In this document: positions 54,744-63,716 of the stretch, piece after piece | Numbering within the stretch: position 1 is the first letter of the stretch | How the letters are laid out: each line of letters begins with the position of its first letter | From: Acidobacteriota bacterium | GTDB taxonomy: Bacteria; Acidobacteriota; Thermoanaerobaculia; UBA5066; Gp7-AA6 | Direction of reading: 5' to 3' | Assembly (NCBI GenBank): GCA_050257975.1 | Contig: JBLMXY010000058.1 | Span: 10,274 to 74,273, forward strand | Length of the DNA stretch: 64,000 nt | Translations under genes and position numbers: made by a program | Notes under the pieces: generated by a model | What the model saw: only the letters and a program-made list of their open reading frames with translations | What the model was told of the DNA's origin: nothing | Database searches by the model: none

Positions 54744-57401
54744 CTATCTCGAAACGAGAGACGGCCAGTTCATGAGGACCGAGATGGGTGCCGGCTCCGG
54801 GGAGCCGACGTCGATCAGGAACCGCTCTCCATCGGAAGCCACATCCCAGTCGCGGATGACGCCCTCGACGTGGAAGAGCGCCACCGGCGCTCCGGGCGCC
54901 TCCCTGCTCCCGGCGGCGAACGATACCGCCATCACCGCGCCGTCGAGCGCAACGTAGTACAGCTCGCGGCCGTCCCGGCGCCAGCGCGGCAGCGCGCCGC
55001 CTCCGACGGAGACGCGGACCTTCTTGCCCGAGCCGAGCCGCGGGACGACGTAGACCTCCCGCTCTCCGGACTCGTCGGAGATGTAGGCGATCGATTGCCC
55101 GTCGGGCGAAAAGCGCGCCCCCCTCTCTCGAAACCGGGTCGCCGCGACCGTCGCGGGCTTCTGCTCGCCGGAAAGCGGCAGCAGCAGGAGGTTCTCGTCC
55201 ACCTGCGAGTAATACTCCGTGTACACGAGAGACTTGCCGTCCGGGGAGACGTCTTCCGGCTGCTGAACGCCGGGAGCGGCGTAAACGGGAGTCTGCAACC
55301 CGGGCGCTCCGACCGACAGCCGGAAGACGTCGGGCGCGCCGTTCGCGTCGGACCGATAGTAGAGCATTCGCCCGTCCGGAGACCAGACAGGATTCTTTTC
55401 GTCGACGGCGTCGAAGGTCAGCCGCACGGAGACGTTCCGTGCGAGGTCGCGCAGCCAGAGGTCGCGGGTCCCTGTCTTGGGATCCTCGATCTGTAGGGCG
55501 ATCGAGCGGTTGTCCGGCGACAGGCGGACCCCGCTCACGGGAGAGGAAGAATCGATGGTCTCGAGCCGCTTTCCGTTCCGGGAAAACCACGCAACCCGCG
55601 CGGGCCTCGCCCCAGTCTCGTACGCAACCGAGCCTGGTGACGCCGAGAAACCGGCGTTGGCAGGCCCGTAGAACGAGTAGATGCCGTCGGCCAGCGCTAC
55701 GGCTTCTCCTCGCAGCACGAGCCGGGCGGGATCGAAGGGCTGAGCCAGAAGGGTTCCTTGCCGCACATACACCAGGAAGCCGGGCTCCACGTACTCGACG
55801 CGCGACTCGAATGGTCCGATGACCGTCGAGGCCTCCTTCGGATCGAGCGAGCCGACCCGAAGCTCGTGACCGGGGGGAGCCTCGGCGGCTCGGCGAATGG
55901 CGAGGTGGAGGAAGTGCCGTCCGTCGGGAAGGAACTGCGGCCAGAACAGCGCGGTTTCGCCCTTCGCGAGATCGGTCTTGAGGAGAAGTTCGGGCTCTCC
56001 GCCGGCGGCATTGACGCGCCAGATGCCGGAACGCTTGCCCGCGAACTGGGCGAACAGGATCACTCCCTGGCGACTCCACGCGGGCACGCACGCGACGGGC
56101 GCCTCGCAGATGACCTGCGGCGGGCCCCCGGAAGCTTCCATCTTCTTGATCTTCCCGTCGGCAAAGAAACCCAGAAAACGGCCGTCCGGCGACCAGAACG
56201 GGGATGTCGCGCCCTCGGTATTTTCGAGCGGTCTCGCGTCCAACGTGTCGAGCCGGCGCAGGTAGAGACGGTCGCCGCCCGGGCCCCTGCCAACGAAGGC
56301 GAGCCTCTGCCCGTCGGGAGCCAGGGCGATCCTCGTTTCCACCTCGGCTGACAGGAATGCGACGTTCTCGGGCAGGACGACCGAGAACCGCACCGGCCTG
56401 GGCGGGGCTGTCGGAGCGCGCCGTGCCACGATCGTCACGCCGAGGGCCAGGGCGAGCGCGCCGGCAAAGAGCCATGGCGCCACCCGAAACCACGGACGGC
56501 GTGCGGCCGCGACCGAGCGCGGCTGCGCCCCGCTCGCCTCGAAGAGGCGATCTCGCAGATTGGCGAGGTCTCGCGCCAGGTCCCGTGTCGAGGCGTAGCG
56601 GTCCTCGGCACTCTTGGCGAGGCAGCGCTCGACGATCCAGCGCAGCGGCGCCGGGGCGAGAGCGTTGTGCTCCTCGATCGGCGCCGGCTCATCCCGGATG
56701 ATCGCCGACAGGGTTTCGGGCGCGCTGCCGCGCGCGAAGGCCCGGCGGCCCGTTGCGAGCTCGTAGAGAATGGCTCCGAAAGCGAACTGGTCCGACCGAT
56801 AATCGAGCGGCTTGCCGAGGGCTTGCTCCGGCGACATGTACCCGACCGTTCCCATCACGATGCCCGGATGCGTCTCGCCGGACACCGTCGGCGCCTGCGT
56901 GGCCCCGCTCGGGTCCTCGGGCTGGGTCAGCTTGGCGAGGCCGAAGTCGAGGATCTTGACGAAGCCGTCTCCAGACACCATCACGTTTTCTGGCTTGAGG
57001 TCGCGATGCACGATTCCCGCGGCGTGAGCCTTCGCCAGGCCGTCGGCCACCTGCGCGGCGATTCCGAGCACGCGCCGGATCGGTGGCGGGCCATCGGTGA
57101 GGATCTCGCGCAGCGTCTGCCCGGACACCAGCTCCATGGCGATGAAGGCGGCGCCGTCGGCCTGCCCGACGTCGTGGATCATGACGATGTTGGGGTGGTT
57201 GAGCGAGGAGGCCGCCCGCGCCTCCTTCTCGAATCGTTTCAGACGCTGCGGATCGGAAGACACGTCAGAAGGCAGGACCTTGACCGCGACATCGCGCTGC
57301 AGGCGGGTATCCCGTGCCCGGTAGACCTCCCCCATCCCCCCGGCGCCCAGGACGGACAGCACCTCGTACGGACCAAGCCTGGCCCCAATCGGAAGGGTCA
57401 T
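54744..57401 (-). CDS. Ser/Thr protein kinase - TM helix - TolB-like (PD40/WD40-like) beta-propeller (STK1)
   Basis: ORF 54744..58439 trimmed to ATG 57401 ([31 protein letters not shown]...). Motifs [36 protein letters not shown] helix WLFAGALALALGVTIV. C-terminal repeated FSPDG/WSPDG propeller motifs. Confidence 0.88.
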   Translation of the reverse strand: MTLPIGARLGPYEVLSVLGAGGMGEVYRARDTRLQRDVAVKVLPSDVSSDPQRLKRFEKEARAASSLNHPNIVMIHDVGQADGAAFIAMELVSGQTLREILTDGPPPIRRVLGIAAQVADGLAKAHAAGIVHRDLKPENVMVSGDGFVKILDFGLAKLTQPEDPSGATQAPTVSGETHPGIVMGTVGYMSPEQALGKPLDYRSDQFAFGAILYELATGRRAFARGSAPETLSAIIRDEPAPIEEHNALAPAPLRWIVERCLAKSAEDRYASTRDLARDLANLRDRLFEASGAQPRSVAAARRPWFRVAPWLFAGALALALGVTIVARRAPTAPPRPVRFSVVLPENVAFLSAEVETRIALAPDGQRLAFVGRGPGGDRLYLRRLDTLDARPLENTEGATSPFWSPDGRFLGFFADGKIKKMEASGGPPQVICEAPVACVPAWSRQGVILFAQFAGKRSGIWRVNAAGGEPELLLKTDLAKGETALFWPQFLPDGRHFLHLAIRRAAEAPPGHELRVGSLDPKEASTVIGPFESRVEYVEPGFLVYVRQGTLLAQPFDPARLVLRGEAVALADGIYSFYGPANAGFSASPGSVAYETGARPARVAWFSRNGKRLETIDSSSPVSGVRLSPDNRSIALQIEDPKTGTRDLWLRDLARNVSVRLTFDAVDEKNPVWSPDGRMLYYRSDANGAPDVFRLSVGAPGLQTPVYAAPGVQQPEDVSPDGKSLVYTEYYSQVDENLLLLPLSGEQKPATVAATRFRERGARFSPDGQSIAYISDESGEREVYVVPRLGSGKKVRVSVGGGALPRWRRDGRELYYVALDGAVMAVSFAAGSREAPGAPVALFHVEGVIRDWDVASDGERFLIDVGSPEPAPISVLMNWPSLVSR

Positions 57402-57646
57402 CGTCGTTCGCGGCGCGACGAAGTTTCGCGAAGTAACCGAGCGAGACGACTCGCGCCGCGGGAGCCGGAGCGCGGCGAGAAGATCAGGGCCGCGGTCGAG
57501 TCCGCATCCGGACGAGCCGTGGCCCGGCGCCCGAAGGGCGGATCTTCGAGCGAGCGAAGGCGACGGTAGACTTCCCCCATTCCGCCCGCGCCGAGTGGCG
57601 AGAGGATTTCGTAGGGCCCAAGGCGGCTGCCCGCGGGGAGAGCCAT
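57398..57646 (-). other. upstream ORF made of a relic kinase N-terminus (28 codons incl. [10 protein letters not shown]) read into the conserved element; its stop overlaps the STK1 start (ATGA)
   Basis: Track ORF 57398..57646: [28 protein letters not shown]|RLRSLEDPPFGRR... The first 28 aa parallel the STK1 N-terminus [28 protein letters not shown]. The remainder has no kinase similarity. Confidence 0.6.
57402..57567 (-). ncRNA. conserved hairpin-rich non-coding element, copy A (candidate structured leader RNA or miniature inverted-repeat element)
   Basis: 166 nt, differing at 5 positions from copy B (63332..63497) by manual alignment. The substitutions are non-synonymous in both open frames. 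The ends are complementary (CGTCG-CC-TTCGC ... GCGAA-CGACG). Internal hairpins include CGCCC-TTC-GGGCG and GTCCG-GATG-CGGAC. Confidence 0.55.
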
Positions 57647-57669
57647 CGGATTTGGCCAATTGTATGGGC

Positions 57670-57705
57670 AAAGGAAAAGCCCGGAGCCCGCGGAAGGCTC
57701 CGGGC
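57670..57705 (-). terminator. rho-independent terminator after the ABC-operon secreted-protein gene
   Basis: Minus strand reads GCCCGGAGCC-TTCCGCG-GGCTCCGGGC followed by TTTTCCTTT, 26 nt after the stop at 57731. Confidence 0.7.
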
Positions 57706-57730: not shown

Positions 57731-58702
57731 CTACTTGTCGCGGTGGGCTCGGGCCTCGGCCGAGAGCGACCGGATCAGGTCTCCCGGCAGCTTGCCCGAG
57801 ATCGTGACGCCCTCGTCGTCGCGCGAGACCTGGAACTTCCGGATCACGGCCACCAGCTGCGGCGACTTCTCCTGCGCCGCCAGGCGCCAGGCCGCCGTCA
57901 GGCCGCGCAGGGCGTCCTCGAGCAGGCCTCGCGTCTCCTCGTCGGAGGACAGGCCCGTGGCCTTGACGGCGAGCGCGTCGGACTCGACCGTCGCCTCCAT
58001 CGCGAGGAGCGAGACGGACCGAAGCGCCGAAACGACGCCCGCCGCGGGCCCGTCGCCCCCGTGCAGCGACGCCGCGGCGCGGCGGGACTTCTCGACGTCG
58101 ACGAGGACCCAGGCGGTCGCCGCGGGGTCCACGCGATGGAGCTCGCGGCCAAGGCCCTTGCCCGAGGAGAAGCCCGTTCCGCCGGCGGCGCGGTCCGAGA
58201 GCGCCGCGATGACGGCGGGCTCGCTTCCGGCGACGACGAGGTGGGAGTTCACGAAGGCGACGGATCCCTGCCCGCGCTCGCCGTGAGATTCGTCCTTCAG
58301 AAGAAAGTAATCCCCGACGTTTGCAGATTTTCGAATCGCGCCGCGCTTGCCGACCGCCGCGGCGAGCCGGGCCGGATCGAAGCGCCCCTCGAAGAAGACG
58401 AGCGACCGTCCCCGCCCCTGGTCGGAGGAGGTCGTGCACGCCACGACCGCGTCCACGTCCTCGCGAAGGTTCAAGCCCGCCTCCGCCAGGAAGCGGCCGC
58501 CCTCGCCGTCGGAGCTCAACTTGTCGGCCTCTTCGAACACCCGCAGCTGGAAGGGATTCGAGCGCAAATCCGCGACCCGCACGAATCCGACGGTCGTCGC
58601 GTTCTCCGGCACGAGCGAGAGGGCGCCGCCGGACGCGGCCGCCGCCGGGGCGGCGAGCAGCGCGAGGACCGGCAGCGCGAGCAGAGCTTTCTTCATCATC
58701 AT
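57731..58702 (-). CDS. secreted hypothetical protein, third gene of the ABC-2 operon
   Basis: ORF 57731..58909 trimmed to the ATG triplet run at 58702 (MMMKKALLALPVLALLAAPAAAASG signal). TGATG overlap with the permease stop. Confidence 0.6.
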   Translation of the reverse strand: MMMKKALLALPVLALLAAPAAAASGGALSLVPENATTVGFVRVADLRSNPFQLRVFEEADKLSSDGEGGRFLAEAGLNLREDVDAVVACTTSSDQGRGRSLVFFEGRFDPARLAAAVGKRGAIRKSANVGDYFLLKDESHGERGQGSVAFVNSHLVVAGSEPAVIAALSDRAAGGTGFSSGKGLGRELHRVDPAATAWVLVDVEKSRRAAASLHGGDGPAAGVVSALRSVSLLAMEATVESDALAVKATGLSSDEETRGLLEDALRGLTAAWRLAAQEKSPQLVAVIRKFQVSRDDEGVTISGKLPGDLIRSLSAEARAHRDK

Positions 58703-59556
58703 CAGAAGTCCTTTCTCCGAAAGAGGAAGCTCGAGAGTCCCAGACAAGCGACGCCGAAGGCTCCGGTCGTGGCGAACGTCATCCAGTTGAGGCCCTGGCT
58801 CAGGCGACCCGGCGCGTGCCCCGCCGCGACGAAGGCGACGACCGCCTGCCCGAGCTCGGCGGTCTTCGGCAGGATCCAGTAGAGGGCGTGGACGACCGTG
58901 GCCTGCCACTCCTTCGAGACGGCCGCGGCGATGCGTTCATGCTGTGCGAGGAGTGCCGCGAAGAAGAAGACGCCGTAGGTCGACATGATCGAAACCCCCG
59001 TCGAGGAGGTGACGACACCGACGAGGAAGGCGAAGGCGAGAAGCGCCGCGATCGCGAACAGGATCACGCCGCCTCCGAGCAGGAAGCGGGGATGCACCAC
59101 CTTCGTCTTCCAGATCAGGATCGCCCAGATCGAACCGATCAGGTACACGAGGTTGGCCGCCGCGAGCAGCAGCCCCGCCGCGTAGCGCGAGAGAAGGAGC
59201 GAGACTCGCCCGACGGGGCGCGACAGGTAAAGGTCCACGGTGCCCTTCTCCTGCATTCGCGGCACCAGGTGAGACGTCGCGAAGACGGCGAGGAAGGTGC
59301 CGACGAGGTAAAGAAAGGCGGAGAAGCCCGACTCGAAGCCGAGGACGAGCTTGTCGAGGTCGACCCGGCTGCCCGGCAGGTCCACCGAGCGGCCGAAGAG
59401 CCTGGCGCCCGCCAGCGCGCCGTCCACGATGTCGAGGTTCACGGCGAAGGCGAAGATCAGGATGAAGAGCGTCGAGAGCGCGAAATAGGCGGCGAGCGTC
59501 CAGCGCGCCGCGGCTTCCCGGAAGACGTCCTCGATCGAAGCGGCGAAGGCCTTCAC
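58702..59556 (-). CDS. ABC-2-type transporter permease
   Basis: 284 aa with about 6 hydrophobic segments (LAAYFALSTLFILIFAFAV, FLYLVGTFLAVFA, LLLAAANLVYLIGSIWAILIW, GGVILFAIAALLAFAFLVGVV ...). Lies immediately after the ATPase gene. Confidence 0.72.
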   Translation of the reverse strand: MKAFAASIEDVFREAAARWTLAAYFALSTLFILIFAFAVNLDIVDGALAGARLFGRSVDLPGSRVDLDKLVLGFESGFSAFLYLVGTFLAVFATSHLVPRMQEKGTVDLYLSRPVGRVSLLLSRYAAGLLLAAANLVYLIGSIWAILIWKTKVVHPRFLLGGGVILFAIAALLAFAFLVGVVTSSTGVSIMSTYGVFFFAALLAQHERIAAAVSKEWQATVVHALYWILPKTAELGQAVVAFVAAGHAPGRLSQGLNWMTFATTGAFGVACLGLSSFLFRRKDF

Positions 59557-60600: not shown

Positions 60601-60767
60601 TCCGCTCGCGGCGCGAGGAGTCTCCCGAGGTAATCGAGGGAGGAGCCTCGCGCCGCGGGAGCGAGCGCGAAGCGAGAGATCAGGCGAGCGGTCGAGGCCG
60701 CAACCGGCCGAGCCGCTTGCCGGTGCGCCCCGCGGGCGCAGGTCCCGAGCGTAGCGCGAGCGACGGT
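60601..60767 (-). ncRNA. conserved hairpin-rich element, diverged copy C, between the STK2 stop and the ABC operon
   Basis: 167 nt, same block order as copies A/B (ACCGTCGC..., TCGnCCGGnTGCGGnCTCGACCGC, CCTGATCT, GCTCCCGCGGCGCGAG, TCGCGCCGCGA). Its first base is the A of the STK2 TGA stop. Helices are kept by compensatory changes. Confidence 0.5.
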
Positions 60768-63331
60768 CAGCGCAGCCCTGTCACGACGAAGAGAGTCGAG
60801 AGCTGCCGCATGATGCTGTAGGCGTACGTCTTCCCGTCCGGCGTCAGGCCGATCGTGTCGATCCCATCGGTGCCCGTCGGATCGGACGGCCCGATCGCGG
60901 CGAGCTTTTCCTGCCGGCCGGTCTCGACATCAAGCCGCCAGATCTCGACGCCCGGGGGCTTCTCCTTGCGCAGGAAGAGCGCCCGGCCGCTCGCGTCCCA
61001 GCGAAGGACGTCGATGACGTCCGGGCCGATCCCGGGAATGGGACGCGGCTCGCCGCCCGCCACAGGATAGAAGAGCCACTTGTGGTCGCGGGTGTTGAGC
61101 AGAGCCGTCTTGCCGTCCGGCGATATCGGGCCGCCGATGCCGAAATTCTCCGGGCCGAACGGGCGGGGCGCGCCTCCCGAGAGATCCTGGACATACATGC
61201 GATAGGGCCTGTCGCCCGATCGAGCCTGAAACAAGAACTGCTTGCTATCGTGTGTCCAGACGAGACCGGGCGCGTATCGCATGCCCTCCATCCGGAATTC
61301 CTTCGACTGTCCGGCGCCCGTCGGAATCAGGAACAACCGATCGGGCGTCGTTCCCGGCTCCGCGATGACCCATTTGCCGTCCGGCGAGAGCGCGAGCGGC
61401 TTCCCGTCGCCCAGGCGCGTCGCGGCCGAGCCATCCGTCCGGCGAAGGTAGATCGATCCCCGCGCGCCGCCTCCTCGGCCCCCCTCCTCGAGGAGGACCG
61501 TGTTCCCATCCTCGGAGAAATCCACGACGCGGGAGAAGTCGAGCCAGGAGAGGTTGGTCTCCGCCGAGCCGACTCGGCCGTACATCGTGGACTCGTGCCA
61601 GTCGTCGACCCGGAGAAGCACGCGGCCGTCTGCGGCGATGTCCTGGACGAGCGTGACGCCGGGAGGCCGCGCGACGACACGAGTCTTTCCCGAGGAGGGC
61701 GACACCGCGCAGAGCATCAGCACGCTCCCGGGCTCGGTGTCCCTCGGGGAGAACCAGATCTCGCCGGTCCGCGGGTGCCAGGCGAGGCCCGCAGCGAAGC
61801 CCCAGCCGGAGCTGACCGTGCGCTTCCTGCCCGTCGCGACGTCGAAGACGACGACCGAGGACGCCTCGTTCGCTCCCCGGAACCTCTCGATCGCGGCGAT
61901 CTCACGGCCGTCGGGCGAAAAGCGGGGAAAATACAGCGCCGCCTGCTCCGCCGGCGCGCCGAGGACCTTGCCGATCGGGAACTCCAGCTTCCCGCGATTG
62001 ATCACGGCGAGCCGCCGGCCGTCCGGCGACCAGTCGGCGAAACGGGTCCCTTCGAGGATCTCGCGCGGCGCACCGCCGGTGAGCGACGCCTCTGCGAGCG
62101 TGAGCGCGTCGCCGCGCAAGAGTCCCACAGCGAGTTTCCCCGAGGAGGAAATCGCGGAGAGGAATGCGTTCGGAAGCGGCAGGGCGGCCGTCTCCGCGCT
62201 GTCCGCTCGGGTCGAGTAGAGCTGAGGCGGCTTGCCCTCCCACTGCGCCGCATAGACGATGGTCTGCCCGTCGGGTGCAAAGCGCGCCTGGTCCATCGTC
62301 CCGCGGCGATACGTGACCGCGCGATAATCGGCGACGGGCGCCGGTCCCCTTCGCGTCGCGAGGACCCCGATCCCGACTCCGGCGGCGAGGGCGAGAACAA
62401 TCGCTGCGAGCCACCTCGAGGGGAGGCGGCGCGGCAGCGTTGCCGCGAACGCCCCGGACGCGCTCGCTTCGGAGATGCCGTCCTTCAACCTCGCGAGGTC
62501 GCGCGAGAGATCCCGCGTCGCGGCGTAGCGTTCGTCGGGATCCTTGGCGAGGCACCGCTCGACGATCCAGCGAAGCGGCACGGGCGTCGACGGCATCGCG
62601 GTCGCGAGGGACTCCGGCTCCTCCCGGAGGATCGCCGTCATCGTCTCCGGCCCGGTCGCCCGCGCGAAGGCCTTCTTGCCCGTCACCATCTCGTAGAGCA
62701 TCGAGCCGAACGAGAACTGGTCCGACCGGAAGTCGAGCGGCTTGCCGAGCGTCTGCTCGGGCGACATATACGACACCGTCCCCACCACCATGCCCGGCTC
62801 GGTCCCGCCCGAGACCGTCGCCACCTGCGTGCCGCCGCTCGAATCCTCCGGCTGAGTCAGCTTGGCCAGCCCGAAGTCCAGGATCTTGGCGAAGCCATCC
62901 CGGGTCACCATGACGTTCTCGGGCTTCAGGTCCCGGTGCACGATGCCGGCGTCGTGCGCCTTGGCGAGCCCTTCGGCCACCTGGGCGGCGACGGCTAGGA
63001 GCTTCTTCTGCGCGAGCGGGCCCTCCGCAAGCATCTGCCGGAGAGTGACGCCCTCGACGAGCTCCATCGCAATGTAAGACGTGGCGCCGGAAGAGCCGAT
63101 GTCGTAGACCGTGACGATGTTGGGGTGGTTGAGAGAGGAGGCCGATTGCGCCTCCTTCTCGAACCGGCGCAGCCGCCGCGCGTCCGCCGAGAGCGCCTCC
63201 GGGAGAACCTTGACCGCGACCACGCGCCCGAGCCGCGTGTCCCGCGCCCGGTACACTTCCCCCATCCCTCCGGCGCCCAGGACGGACAGAACCTCGTACG
63301 GACCGAGCCTGGTCCCGATGGAGAGGGTCAT
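60767..63331 (-). CDS. Ser/Thr protein kinase - TM helix - TolB-like beta-propeller (STK2, paralog of STK1)
   Basis: ORF 60767..63601 trimmed to ATG 63331 ([31 protein letters not shown]...). Motifs [30 protein letters not shown] helix [18 protein letters not shown]. Propeller motifs FAPDG, WSPDG, FSPDG, LSPDG. Confidence 0.88.
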
Positions 63332-63576
63332 CGTCGTTCGCGGCGCGACGAAGCTTCGCGAAGTAACCGAGCGAAACGACTCGCGCCGCGGGAGCCGGAG
63401 CGCGGCGAGAAGATCAGGGCCGCGGCCGAGTCCGCATCCGGACGAGCCGCGGCCCGGCGCCCGAAGGGCGGATCTTCGAGCGAACGAAGGCGACGGTAGA
63501 CTTCTCCCATCCCCCCGGCGCCGAGCGGCGCCAGGAGCTCGTAGGGACGGGGCCGGCTCCCGGCGGCTGATGTCAT
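63328..63576 (-). other. upstream ORF with relic kinase N-terminus preceding STK2; stop overlaps the STK2 start (ATGA)
   Basis: Track ORF 63328..63576: [28 protein letters not shown]|RLRSLEDPPFGRR... Same architecture as 57398..57646. Confidence 0.6.
63332..63497 (-). ncRNA. conserved hairpin-rich non-coding element, copy B
   Basis: 161 of 166 positions identical to copy A, at the same position relative to the kinase start and exactly 5930 nt away. Confidence 0.55.
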
Positions 63577-63716
63577 GGAAGTTGCTCAATTCTATGGGCA
63601 AAGGGGAAGCGAACCACGACAGCTGTTTCTCCCCGAAGGGACCGCGATTCCCGGCCGGAGCGCTGCCGAGAGCTAAACTCCTATTCAGGTCTGGTCTCTC
63701 AGACTACAATAGTCAT

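What the first reader, a model, noticed from the sequence alone, without database searches (positions are those of the whole stretch)
57398..57646. Relic second kinase N-terminus forms an 82-codon uORF that ends in ATGA on the STK1 start
Upstream of STK1 there is a second, diverged copy of the first 28 kinase codons: [28 protein letters not shown] versus [28 protein letters not shown]. After the shared ...GAAGTCTACCG it runs straight into the conserved element and stops at a TGA overlapping the genuine ATG. Deleting everything between the two GEVYR-coding sites would recreate an intact kinase. The layout therefore looks like an insertion into codon ~29 that brought, or was followed by, a replacement 5' end. 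Alternatives are a regulatory uORF translationally coupled to the kinase, a recombination cassette for N-terminus swapping, or (least likely) a recoding/bypass event. Upstream of this ATG I saw no Shine-Dalgarno-like purine run.
Basis: partly seen in the sequence, partly recalled or inferred. Interest (0 to 1): 0.65.

Follow-up and report, generated by a model that had tools for sequence, protein, structure and literature searches.

The report
Kinase stub plus repeat forms uORF
The small reading frame in front of this bacterial kinase gene is the leftover start of another kinase gene fused to a copy of a folded, genome-wide repeat, and related bacteria keep its frame so that it always ends on the kinase start codon, probably to pass ribosomes on to the kinase.

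Summary
An 82-codon ORF (57398-57646) starts with a diverged copy of the first 27-28 kinase codons and ends in the TGA of the ATGA that starts STK1. STK2 has the same layout (63328-63576).

The 161-nt "conserved element" is one copy of a dispersed, about 160-nt structured repeat. More than 117 copies were found in Thermoanaerobaculia/Acidobacteriota genomes. It has strong covariation and is absent from Rfam. It normally begins 0-5 nt after a stop codon or a tRNA-Leu gene. A third copy follows STK2's stop.

The relic carries the promoter geometry of intact kinases. The real kinases start ATGA, like internal genes of tandem arrays. Best reading: a kinase stub was joined to the element that already lay in front of the next kinase. 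The origin is inferred.

The uORF frame is conserved. Seven independent length changes all keep the stop on the kinase ATG, whereas control copies show no mod-3 bias. The layout is retained across orthologous loci. This supports translational coupling. This is a new variant of known kinds, of moderate interest.

The parts
57679..57705 (-). Intrinsic-terminator-like hairpin plus T-run that ends the upstream gene (57731..58909, minus strand). It places the start of the STK1 transcription unit downstream of it.
   Evidence: 11-bp stem, 9 GC pairs, TTTTCCTTTG tail
57659..57664 (-). -10-like box TACAAT, 12 nt upstream of the relic ATG. This is the promoter geometry shared with intact kinases. It implies a very short leader (about 5-9 nt) without an SD (inferred).
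   Evidence: conserved CCTTTGCCCATAnAATTG in both window loci; TA[GC]AAT-N12-15-ATG before relics and before intact, element-free kinases
57566..57646 (-). Relic: the first 27 codons (81 nt) of a kinase gene, [27 protein letters not shown], ending ...GTCTAC| at the element boundary.
57406..57565 (-). Copy 1 of the dispersed structured repeat (begins CGTCGCC, ends CGCGCCGCGAAC). It has a three-way-junction domain plus a long bulged hairpin. It lacks the about 22-nt 3' extension seen in copies that follow stop codons.
   Evidence: 153.5 bits, E 4e-28
57398..57646 (-). The 82-codon uORF: relic plus read-through of the element. Its TGA (57398-57400) overlaps the STK1 ATG (57399-57401) as ATGA.
57321..57401 (-). 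Genuine STK1 N-terminus (first 27 codons), a direct repeat of the relic (56/84 nt identity over 28 codons).
54744..57401 (-). STK1: an 885-aa Ser/Thr kinase with a C-terminal PD40/TolB-type beta-propeller.
   Evidence: P0121 is called from this ATG
63589..63594 (-). -10-like box TAGAAT upstream of the second relic.
63328..63576 (-). Second 82-codon uORF (relic [27 protein letters not shown] plus element read-through). It ends in the ATGA of STK2.
63336..63495 (-). Copy 2 of the repeat. The 161-nt spacer is 156/161 identical to that of copy 1.
   Evidence: 151.5 bits
60767..63331 (-). STK2: an 854-aa paralogous kinase-propeller protein.
60604..60765 (-). Copy 3 of the repeat in its usual position, starting 1 nt after the STK2 stop codon (..CTG CGC TGA C|CGTCGC..), with the 3' extension.
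   Evidence: (120.4 bits)

Best explanation
SHOWN. The 161 nt between the relic and the STK1 start is one copy of a dispersed, about 160-nt repeat (called E here) with a conserved fold. In Thermoanaerobaculia genomes E normally begins 0-5 nt after the stop codon of a same-strand gene, or just after a tRNA-Leu gene.

SHOWN. The relic is the true 5' end of a promoter-bearing kinase. The real kinase starts ATGA, like internal genes of the tandem kinase arrays of these organisms. All E copies that sit in front of a kinase share one 3' junction (CGCGAAC-NNNN-ATGA) and lack E's 3' extension.

INFERRED ORIGIN. In an array [promoter-kinase A ... stop | E | kinase B], most of A was lost. This happened either by a microhomology deletion ending at the A-stop/E boundary, or by a second E inserting at ..GTNTAC| in A followed by E-by-E recombination. 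The result is [promoter - 27 codons of A | E | kinase B]. Later duplications, speciation and further in-frame erosion of the relic (to 25, 13 and 7 codons) spread and reshaped it.

SHOWN. The reading frame that starts at the relic ATG is kept open through E and always ends on the TGA of the kinase ATGA.

INFERRED MECHANISM. Ribosomes load at the relic AUG, which lies on a very short leader without an SD. They translate through E and unwind it. E's 9-bp all-GC helix ends only 7 nt before the kinase AUG. The ribosomes terminate at AUGA and reinitiate on the kinase. So the stub works as a coupling leader ORF, not as a peptide with its own function.
For: Dispersed repeat:
- The invariant 22-mer hit >117 loci, nearly all in Acidobacteriota/Thermoanaerobaculia MAGs, with several per genome.
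- The ends are sharp.
- 50 of 81 non-kinase copies start 0-5 nt after a same-strand stop, and 4 start after tRNA-Leu.
- A third window copy starts right after the STK2 stop.

Structure:
- 24 of 43 pairs show double compensatory changes. 96.5% of cells pair, against 82.6% in shuffles and 30-44% when partners are slid. 0 of 500 shuffles reach the covariation score.

Relic is a kinase 5' end:
- TA[GC]AAT-N12-15-ATG occurs before relics and before intact, element-free kinases.
- 42 of 48 real kinase starts are [A/G]TGA, and neighbouring kinases in arrays overlap by 4 nt.

Progenitor-like and related states:
- L111/L124: kinase A stop|E|GGCT-ATG kinase B. L045: E-ATG kinase with no relic.
- Stubs without E: P0091, P0087, P0036 and L132 493-726.

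Frame selection:
- The uORF frame is open to the ATGA in 16 of 17 genome loci and in all 6 distinct metagenome loci. ATG-to-ATG distances from 173 to 359 nt are all 2 mod 3.
- Control copies have length mod 3 = 27/32/24, and only 19 of 83 would qualify.
- Seven length changes are all net multiples of 3: -6, -36/-42, -59 in the relic together with -4 in E, +3, a different internal frame that returns, +15 and +99.

Retention:
- L022/L030/L076/L008 are orthologous loci in four species. L060/L075 are collinear over 3.8 kb.

The peptide tail does not matter:
- The same 22-mer is read as SGSRGAS in some loci and as ALRLPRR in others.

Background: termination-reinitiation at 4-nt overlaps, and structure-dependent coupling (PMC6728339).
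Against: - There are no expression data of any kind. The promoter, the short leader and the coupling are all inferred from sequence.
- Kinases with E upstream but no uORF exist (L045, L111/L124). So E does not make coupling obligatory.
- L077 has a stop inside its uORF, although its 99.3%-identical relative L130 does not.
- Some relics lack an ATG (L060, L075, L056) and would need a CTG or GTG start, or coupling to the gene upstream.
- No orthologous locus with an intact kinase A-E-B was found for any relic-bearing locus. STK1 has no homolog above 64% identity. The deletion origin is therefore indirect.
- Orthologous relics show pN/pS of about 0.05. A pure coupling role does not predict this. 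I attribute it to gene conversion with the real N-terminus (patchy identity in L076 and L132), but that is not proven.
- Kinase-linked copies are related to one another, so the count of seven independent frame-preserving events is an estimate.
Confidence: 0.6

Rival explanations
1. First reader's favoured model. A single kinase was split at codon ~28 by a mobile unit made of the element plus a captured kinase 5' end, for example by read-through of the element's 3' end to the next ..AC| site. The insertion itself supplied the new start.
For: - In the window, identity between the two loci is about 70% in the relic, 95-98% in the element and 86-90% in the real N-terminus, then drops to about 64% just after the real GEVY site.
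- The relic/element junction is sharp, and all relic junctions end ..AC| like the flanks of other copies.
- Kinase-linked copies lack the normal 3' extension, which could cause read-through.
- L108 holds an orphan, decayed N-terminal fragment between two element copies.
Against: - Across 17 loci, element identity does not predict real-N-terminus synonymous divergence (rho 0.11, p 0.22). L007 versus the window has the element at 95% but real-N pS of 0.77.
- In the window pair, real-N pS (0.36) is close to body pS (0.48). The block pattern is explained by the element's own constraint plus protein-level constraint on the N-terminus.
- The same 3' junction occurs without a relic (L045) and between tandem kinases (L111/L124).
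- The relic and the real N-terminus belong to different start types, promoter-bearing versus ATGA-internal.
- A plain element insertion at codon 3 made a pseudogene and not a restored gene (L111).
- No terminal inverted repeats, no target-site duplication and no transposase link were found.
Confidence: 0.15
2. Neutral debris. The uORF is a meaningless by-product of gene decay in GC-rich DNA, where long open frames arise by chance. The kinase initiates on its own.
For: - GC-rich sequence has few stops: in control element copies each frame is open in 54-69 of 83.
- Kinase arrays are littered with stubs.
- Kinases with E upstream but no uORF exist (L045, L111).
Against: - Length mod 3 is flat in controls, but 16 of 17 kinase-linked copies are 2 mod 3, and the one exception is compensated by its relic length.
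- Seven length changes all preserve the stop on the ATG.
- The arrangement is kept at orthologous loci in four species.
- Orthologous relics have pN 0-0.02 against pS 0.09-0.36.
Confidence: 0.12
3. The relic is still used as a kinase N-terminus. The 245-nt interval (element plus second N-terminus) is skipped or removed in some molecules, by ribosomal bypass from UAC to UAC, by RNA processing, or by precise DNA deletion between the 81-nt direct repeats. This would give two N-terminal isoforms or two expression states.
For: - Orthologous relics are as constrained at the protein level as real N-termini (pN/pS about 0.05).
- Removing the 245 nt restores an intact ORF.
- Identical take-off and landing codons exist (GTC TAC CG in both).
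- Relic and real copies exchange sequence (L076 78/81; L132).
Against: - No stop codon follows the putative take-off codon.
- The gap is about five times the known 50-nt bypass (own knowledge of T4 gene 60).
- No Rfam intron or ribozyme matches.
- Frame conservation of the uORF through the element is not expected if the element is skipped.
- Relics eroded to 7-13 codons, or lacking an ATG, are retained.
- Gene conversion gives a simpler reason for the low pN.
Confidence: 0.05
4. The uORF peptide is itself a functional small protein, for example a regulator of the kinase.
For: - About 40 homologs of about 82 aa exist.
- The relic part is conserved at the protein level.
Against: - The tail is dictated by the element's nucleotides and is read in different frames in different loci (SGSRGAS versus ALRLPRR from the same 22-mer).
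- The relic can shrink to 7 codons (L008).
- There is no Pfam match.
- A 27-aa fragment of the glycine-rich loop cannot form a kinase fold (own knowledge).
Confidence: 0.03

Closest known systems
Translational coupling by termination-reinitiation at overlapping stop/start codons (ATGA) and upstream-translation-dependent initiation (Huber et al. 2019, PMC6728339)
   Same: There is a 4-nt ATGA overlap. The downstream start has no obvious SD and sits next to stable structure. The kinase arrays of these genomes use the same overlap between full-length genes.
   Different: The upstream cistron is not a gene. It is a 7-27-codon gene stub fused to a read-through of a folded repeat. Coupling is inferred from frame conservation and has not been measured.
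Short leader ORFs as first cistron of polycistronic mRNAs in mycobacteria (bioRxiv 10.1101/834739) and classical leader-peptide uORFs
   Same: A short ORF at the extreme 5' end of the transcript lies upstream of the regulated gene. There is no SD. A -10-like box lies close to the start codon.
   Different: No amino-acid-sensing codon run and no attenuator terminator are evident. The -10 box is 18-21 nt from the ATG rather than the roughly 12 nt typical of true leaderless genes (PMC3160421). The ORF derives from a paralogous gene plus a repeat.
REP/BIME and CGTC- or GTAG-tagged palindromic repeats; RPE, Correia/NEMIS and ERIC-type structured repeats (Di Nocera et al. 2013, PMC3733652)
   Same: Many dispersed copies. 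Mostly just downstream of coding regions in the sense orientation. Folded. No transposase of their own. Occasionally found inside genes. The element starts with CGTC.
   Different: It is about 160-185 nt with a three-way junction plus a long hairpin, not a single 20-40-bp palindrome. Copies at orthologous sites are 97-99% conserved across species. No dimer organisation was seen. A link to RAYT transposases was not established.
IS200/IS605-derived non-autonomous elements (PATEs)
   Same: No inverted terminal repeats and no target duplication. Strongly folded. The 5' flank shows a short motif (T-R-A-C|).
   Different: The flank motif may simply reflect stop codons followed by C. No TnpA-carrying parent was found. 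Many copies are positionally stable across species.
Programmed translational bypass (phage T4 gene 60)
   Same: Matching codons lie on both sides of a non-coding gap, with a structured gap.
   Different: The gap is 245 nt, not 50. There is no stop after the take-off codon. The frame through the gap is conserved, which bypass does not need.

Membership tests
Translationally coupled uORF (termination-reinitiation) | The stop of the upstream ORF overlaps or abuts the downstream start (ATGA/TGATG). | tested here: met
   ATGA in both window loci and in all 23 kinase-linked copies.
Translationally coupled uORF (termination-reinitiation) | The upstream ORF is conserved as an open frame that ends at the downstream start. 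| tested here: met
   16 of 17 genome loci and 6 of 6 metagenome loci. Control copies: 19 of 83.
Translationally coupled uORF (termination-reinitiation) | Downstream translation depends on upstream translation. | not testable with these tools
   Needs reporters or ribosome profiling.
Leaderless mRNA | TANNNT box with its first T about 12 nt upstream of the start codon (PMC3160421). | tested here: not met
   The first T is 18-21 nt upstream. This implies a short leader of about 5-9 nt, not a leaderless mRNA.
Any Rfam 15 RNA family | Score at or above the family gathering threshold. | tested here: not met
   0 hits in the whole window at gathering threshold. Only noise at E<=10 over all three copies.
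REP (GTAG/CGTC-tagged palindromic repeats) | A single 20-40-bp imperfect palindrome. | tested here: not met
   About 160 nt, 7 helices, two branch points.
REP (GTAG/CGTC-tagged palindromic repeats) | A conserved GTAG or CGTC tetranucleotide at one end. | tested here: met
   The element begins CGTCGCC in nearly all copies.
REP (GTAG/CGTC-tagged palindromic repeats) | Extragenic, predominantly downstream of coding regions. | tested here: met
   50 of 81 copies start 0-5 nt after a same-strand stop.
REP (GTAG/CGTC-tagged palindromic repeats) | Association with a RAYT (Y1 transposase) gene. | not tested
   Only one incidental PF01797 gene was seen, about 10 kb away in L001.
MITE | Terminal inverted repeats. 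| tested here: not met
   The median longest complementary run between the ends is 4 nt.
MITE | Target-site duplication. | tested here: inconclusive
   4-mers: 15 observed against 10 expected. Nothing at 6 nt or longer. The exact 3' end is uncertain.
IS200/IS605-type non-autonomous element | Insertion 3' of a fixed 4-5-nt target, no TSD, subterminal hairpins, and a TnpA-bearing parent. | tested here: inconclusive
   The flank is T-R-A-C|, but this is confounded with stop codons. No parent element was sought successfully.
Programmed translational bypass (gene 60 type) | Matching take-off and landing codons. | tested here: met
   GTC TAC CG lies at both sites.
Programmed translational bypass (gene 60 type) | A stop codon right after the take-off codon, and a gap of about 50 nt. 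| tested here: not met
   The next codon is CGT. The gap is 245 nt.
Ser/Thr protein kinase (Pkinase) with PD40 propeller | Pfam PF00069 plus PF07676 above the curated cut-offs. | tested here: met
   STK1 149.6 and 101.9 bits. STK2 172.6 and 38.2 bits. The uORF has no family.

The most novel reading that the evidence does not exclude
The repeat is a new class of functional structured RNA module that normally acts in 3' UTRs. In this kinase family it has been co-opted inside a translated leader ORF as a gate. Whatever binds or stabilises the fold would decide whether ribosomes reach the AUGA and make the kinase. The 81-nt relic is kept coding because exchange or precise deletion between the two N-terminal repeats can switch the gene between gated and ungated states.
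Probability: 0.08. Interest if true: 0.8.

Novelty: new variant of a known kind. Interest (0 to 1): 0.5.

Why it matters
First, it shows how gene debris and a repeat can be turned into a working part. A promoter-bearing stub of one paralog, fused through a folded repeat, seems to be kept by selection only so that ribosomes end up on the start codon of the next gene. That would be a clear natural case of selection on a reading frame and not on its product. It can be tested with a single stop or frameshift mutation.

Second, following the finding uncovered a structured repeat of about 160 nt, with many copies per genome, in Thermoanaerobaculia. It is not in Rfam. It sits right after stop codons and tRNA-Leu genes. 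It is 97-99% conserved at orthologous sites while synonymous sites differ by about 30%. That pattern points to a host function (3'-end processing, stability, termination or protein binding) that is unknown.

Third, there is a practical lesson for annotation. These 80-aa "hypothetical proteins" and the many 50-90-aa "kinase" mini-ORFs in Acidobacteriota MAGs are stubs, not genes. Gene callers also often miss the true kinase starts.

Tried and rejected
1. Known RNA families. The Rfam gathering scan of the whole window and permissive scans over all three copies gave nothing.
2. Source look-up of window proteins. Neither protein is on record.
3. 'Internally deleted upstream kinase whose own 3' end forms the spacer'. 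Rejected for this locus once the spacer proved to be a dispersed repeat. Such stubs do exist elsewhere.
4. 'Element plus N-terminus as one recently mobile unit'. Tested by segment-wise divergence across 17 loci and not supported.
5. 'Relic length classes are independent insertions'. Rejected, because L008 is orthologous to the 27-codon loci and L060/L075 are collinear.
6. Classical MITE. No TIR and no clear TSD.
7. Search for the predicted intermediate (element at codon 28 with the same kinase body continuing). None found in this sample.
8. Empty-site ortholog of STK1. The best homolog is only 64% identical. Comparing N-termini of homologs with relic and real was uninformative.
9. Homologs called from an internal 'MGEVYR' start looked like interrupted genes but are start-calling artefacts.
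10. The antisense strand of the window copy folds better (z -4.8 vs -2.3). However, G-U against A-C counts in 45 copies, and the orientation after stop codons, favour the sense strand.
11. Ungapped body dN/dS was wrong. Even after codon alignment, body pN is inflated in some MFD MAGs, probably by frameshifts if these are long-read assemblies as I assume, so it was not used.
12. The metagenome scan with the junction pattern returned only 8 loci.


Full report
OBSERVATION

The feature is real and lies on the minus strand. ORF 57398..57646(-) encodes 82 aa. Its first 28 codons ([28 protein letters not shown]) are a diverged copy of the STK1 start ([28 protein letters not shown]). They share 56/84 nt, 19 of 28 differences fall at third codon positions, and there are 15 synonymous against 5 non-synonymous codon changes. 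After ...GTCTAC the ORF runs through a 161-nt spacer and stops at the TGA of the ATGA that starts STK1. The two GEVY-coding sites are 245 nt apart.

STK2, 6 kb away, has the same layout at 63328..63576(-). Both kinases are Pkinase plus PD40 beta-propeller proteins. The uORF matches no Pfam family. The upstream gene ends in a terminator-like hairpin at 57679-57705, and a -10-like TACAAT lies 12 nt before the relic ATG.

THE ARRANGEMENT IS RECURRENT

A protein search with the uORF found about 40 distinct ORFs of about 82 aa that cover the whole query, tail included. Where named, they come from Thermoanaerobaculia MAGs, and some MAGs have more than one. In their contigs the kinases lie in tandem arrays whose stop and start codons overlap by 4 nt. 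The uORF precedes some kinases with the same overlap.

THE SPACER IS A DISPERSED STRUCTURED REPEAT

Between diverged loci the spacer is more conserved than the coding DNA on either side, and it shows compensatory changes. Nearly all are Acidobacteriota/Thermoanaerobaculia MAGs with several copies per genome. A few hits in Streptomyces, Lentzea, Burkholderiaceae and Bacillota records showed no recognisable element boundaries and are probably chance matches. Most copies have no kinase next to them.

The element, called E here, has sharp ends: CGTCGCC... and ...CGCGCCGCGAAC. Non-kinase copies carry a weakly conserved 3' extension of about 22 nt. Of 81 non-kinase copies, 50 begin 0-5 nt after the stop codon of a same-strand ORF, and 4 begin directly after tRNA-Leu genes. 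The 5' flank consensus is T-R-A-C|. E follows many unrelated genes, and often the same gene in several species.

An alignment of 45 non-redundant copies gives a three-way-junction domain plus a long bulged hairpin (43 pairs). Of these pairs, 24 show double compensatory changes. 96.5% of cells pair, against 82.6% in shuffles and 30-44% when partners are slid. 0 of 500 shuffles reach the covariation score. Rfam 15 has no match. There are no terminal inverted repeats and no clear target duplication. A covariance model finds a third copy in the window at 60604-60765(-), starting 1 nt after the STK2 stop.

One caveat applies. The 22-mer's invariance follows from how the copies were collected.

WHAT THE RELIC IS

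Intact, element-free kinases in these genomes have the same upstream geometry as the relics, TA[GC]AAT-N12-15-ATG. L007 even holds an intact paralog with the promoter and N-terminus of its own relic. So the relic is the genuine promoter plus 5' end of a promoter-bearing kinase.

The "real" kinases behind E all start ATGA, as 42 of 48 kinase starts in these arrays do. All kinase-linked E copies share one 3' junction (CGCGAAC-NNNN-ATGA) and lack the 3' extension.

That junction also occurs without a relic (L045), and between two tandem kinases as kinase A stop|E|GGCT-ATG kinase B (L111/L124). E after a kinase stop is common. A plain E insertion at codon 3 produced a decayed kinase, not a restored one (L111).

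Kinase stubs without any E are frequent. They include an N-terminus fused to the last few residues (P0091, P0087, L132 493-726) and a relic fused in frame ahead of a full N-terminus (P0036).

ORIGIN (INFERRED)

The simplest history starts from the array layout [promoter-kinase A ... stop | E | kinase B] and loses most of A. Two routes give the same product:
- a deletion that ends at the A-stop/E boundary, where microhomology such as AC|CG is available;
- a second E inserted at ..GTNTAC| in A, followed by recombination between the two E copies.

I could not see the ancestral state directly. STK1's best homolog is only 64% identical.

The different relic lengths are not separate insertions. L008 (7 codons) is orthologous to L022/L030/L076 (27 codons). 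L075 (25 codons) is collinear with L060 (27 codons) over 3.8 kb. So relics erode by secondary deletions, and the number of founding events is unknown (at least one).

In the window, the block of high identity between the two loci runs from one GEVY site to the other. That looks like a 245-nt inserted unit. Across 17 loci, however, element identity does not predict synonymous divergence of the real N-terminus (rho 0.11, p 0.22). In the window pair the real N-terminus has pS 0.36, against 0.48 for the body. The block is therefore explained by E's own constraint plus protein-level constraint on the N-terminus. Orthologous E copies are 97-99% identical while coding pS is about 0.3.

THE FRAME IS UNDER SELECTION

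In 16 of 17 distinct genome loci, and in all 6 distinct metagenome loci found with a relic-independent pattern, the frame that ends in the TGA of ATGA is open through E and into the relic. ATG-to-ATG distances range from 173 to 359 nt and are all 2 mod 3. The exception, L077, has a stop that its 99.3%-identical relative L130 lacks.

Controls behave differently. The 83 non-kinase copies have length mod 3 = 27/32/24, and only 19 would give an open frame with the right phase.

Seven length changes are each a net multiple of 3:
- -6 nt in the relic;
- -36 or -42 nt in the relic;
- -59 nt in the relic together with -4 nt in E (L008);
- +3 nt in E;
- an E subfamily that is read in another frame internally and returns (L022 type);
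- +15 nt in E;
- +99 nt in E.

At one third each, the chance of this is about 5e-4. This is an estimate, because the copies are related.

The peptide tail itself is not conserved. The same 22-mer is read as SGSRGAS or as ALRLPRR.

MECHANISM (INFERRED)

The -10-like box is 18-21 nt from the relic ATG. This is further than the roughly 12 nt typical of leaderless genes (PMC3160421). The leader is therefore very short (about 5-9 nt) and has no SD. The kinase ATG has no SD either, and it lies 7 nt after a 9-bp all-GC helix of E.

I propose the following sequence. Ribosomes enter at the relic AUG. They translate through E and unwind it. They terminate at AUGA and reinitiate on the kinase. This is the termination-reinitiation and structure-dependent coupling described for overlapping genes (PMC6728339).

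UNEXPLAINED

Orthologous relics show pN 0-0.02 against pS 0.09-0.36. They are as constrained as real N-termini. Patchy relic/real identity in L076 (78/81) and L132 shows gene conversion between the two repeats, in both directions. That could impose indirect selection on the relic, but direct use of the relic is not excluded.

LIMITS

- There are no expression data.
- Many loci come from MFD MAGs that I take to be long-read assemblies with possible indel errors.
- E's native function and its means of spread are unknown.

Noticed in passing
window 60604-60765 (-): A third full-length copy of the structured repeat starts 1 nt after the STK2 stop codon and has the 3' extension. STK2 is therefore bracketed by copies.
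   Followed up: yes
L007-L123 (genome scan), e.g. L048/L058/L062, L047/L068/L122, L083/L103, L102/L116, L010/L115: The repeat follows the stop codon of the same gene in several species, and orthologous copies are 97-99% identical. It behaves like a conserved 3'-UTR module, not a freely jumping element. It is not in Rfam 15.
   Followed up: partly
L071 2123-2208, L085 110-196, L101 6572-6658, L123 1080-1164: Four copies of the repeat begin a few nt after the 3' end of tRNA-Leu genes (anticodons CAA, TAG, TAG, GAG).
   Followed up: partly
L111 6142-6474 (= L124): Two repeat copies lie in tandem, separated by ACGGCT-ATG-ACG-CAC. The second copy is inserted at codon 3 of a kinase whose remainder is decayed (in-frame TAG).
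   Followed up: yes
L108 2688-3050: An orphan, decayed kinase N-terminal fragment (ACG in place of ATG, about 24 codons) lies between a full repeat copy and an internally deleted one, upstream of a nuoA-like gene.
   Followed up: partly
P0091, P0087, P0036, P0045; L132 493-726: Mini-ORFs of 50-95 aa annotated as kinases or hypothetical proteins are internally deleted kinase stubs: an N-terminus fused to the last residues, or a relic fused ahead of a full N-terminus without any repeat.
   Followed up: partly
P0162, P0163, P0165, P0167, P0168, P0170, P0173, P0176, P0178, P0179; L133 2936-3001: About ten homologs are called from the internal Met of the P-loop (MGEVYR...). In the one locus inspected (P0179, L133) the true ATG with a TAGAAT box lies 66 nt upstream, so this is a start-calling artefact; the others were not checked.
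   Followed up: yes
L001 19925-20249: A gene with a Y1 transposase domain (PF01797, 322 aa, RAYT-like size) lies about 10 kb from the relic locus. No link to the repeat was tested.
   Followed up: no
L106 6084-6510 (-): The layout is [repeat]-30 nt-[relic with TTG start]-[repeat]-[kinase]. The relic is itself preceded by another copy.
   Followed up: no
L030 3139-4456 and L076 2581-3911: About 1.3 kb of extra DNA lies between the upstream block and the relic, compared with the orthologous L022 locus. Its content was not examined.
   Followed up: no
window 29780-35458: Very long ORFs (about 1890 aa) are open on both strands over the same interval. Not examined.
   Followed up: no
window 57390-57575: The antisense (plus) strand of this copy folds better than the sense strand (z -4.8 vs -2.3), although family-wide G-U counts and orientation favour the sense strand.
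   Followed up: partly
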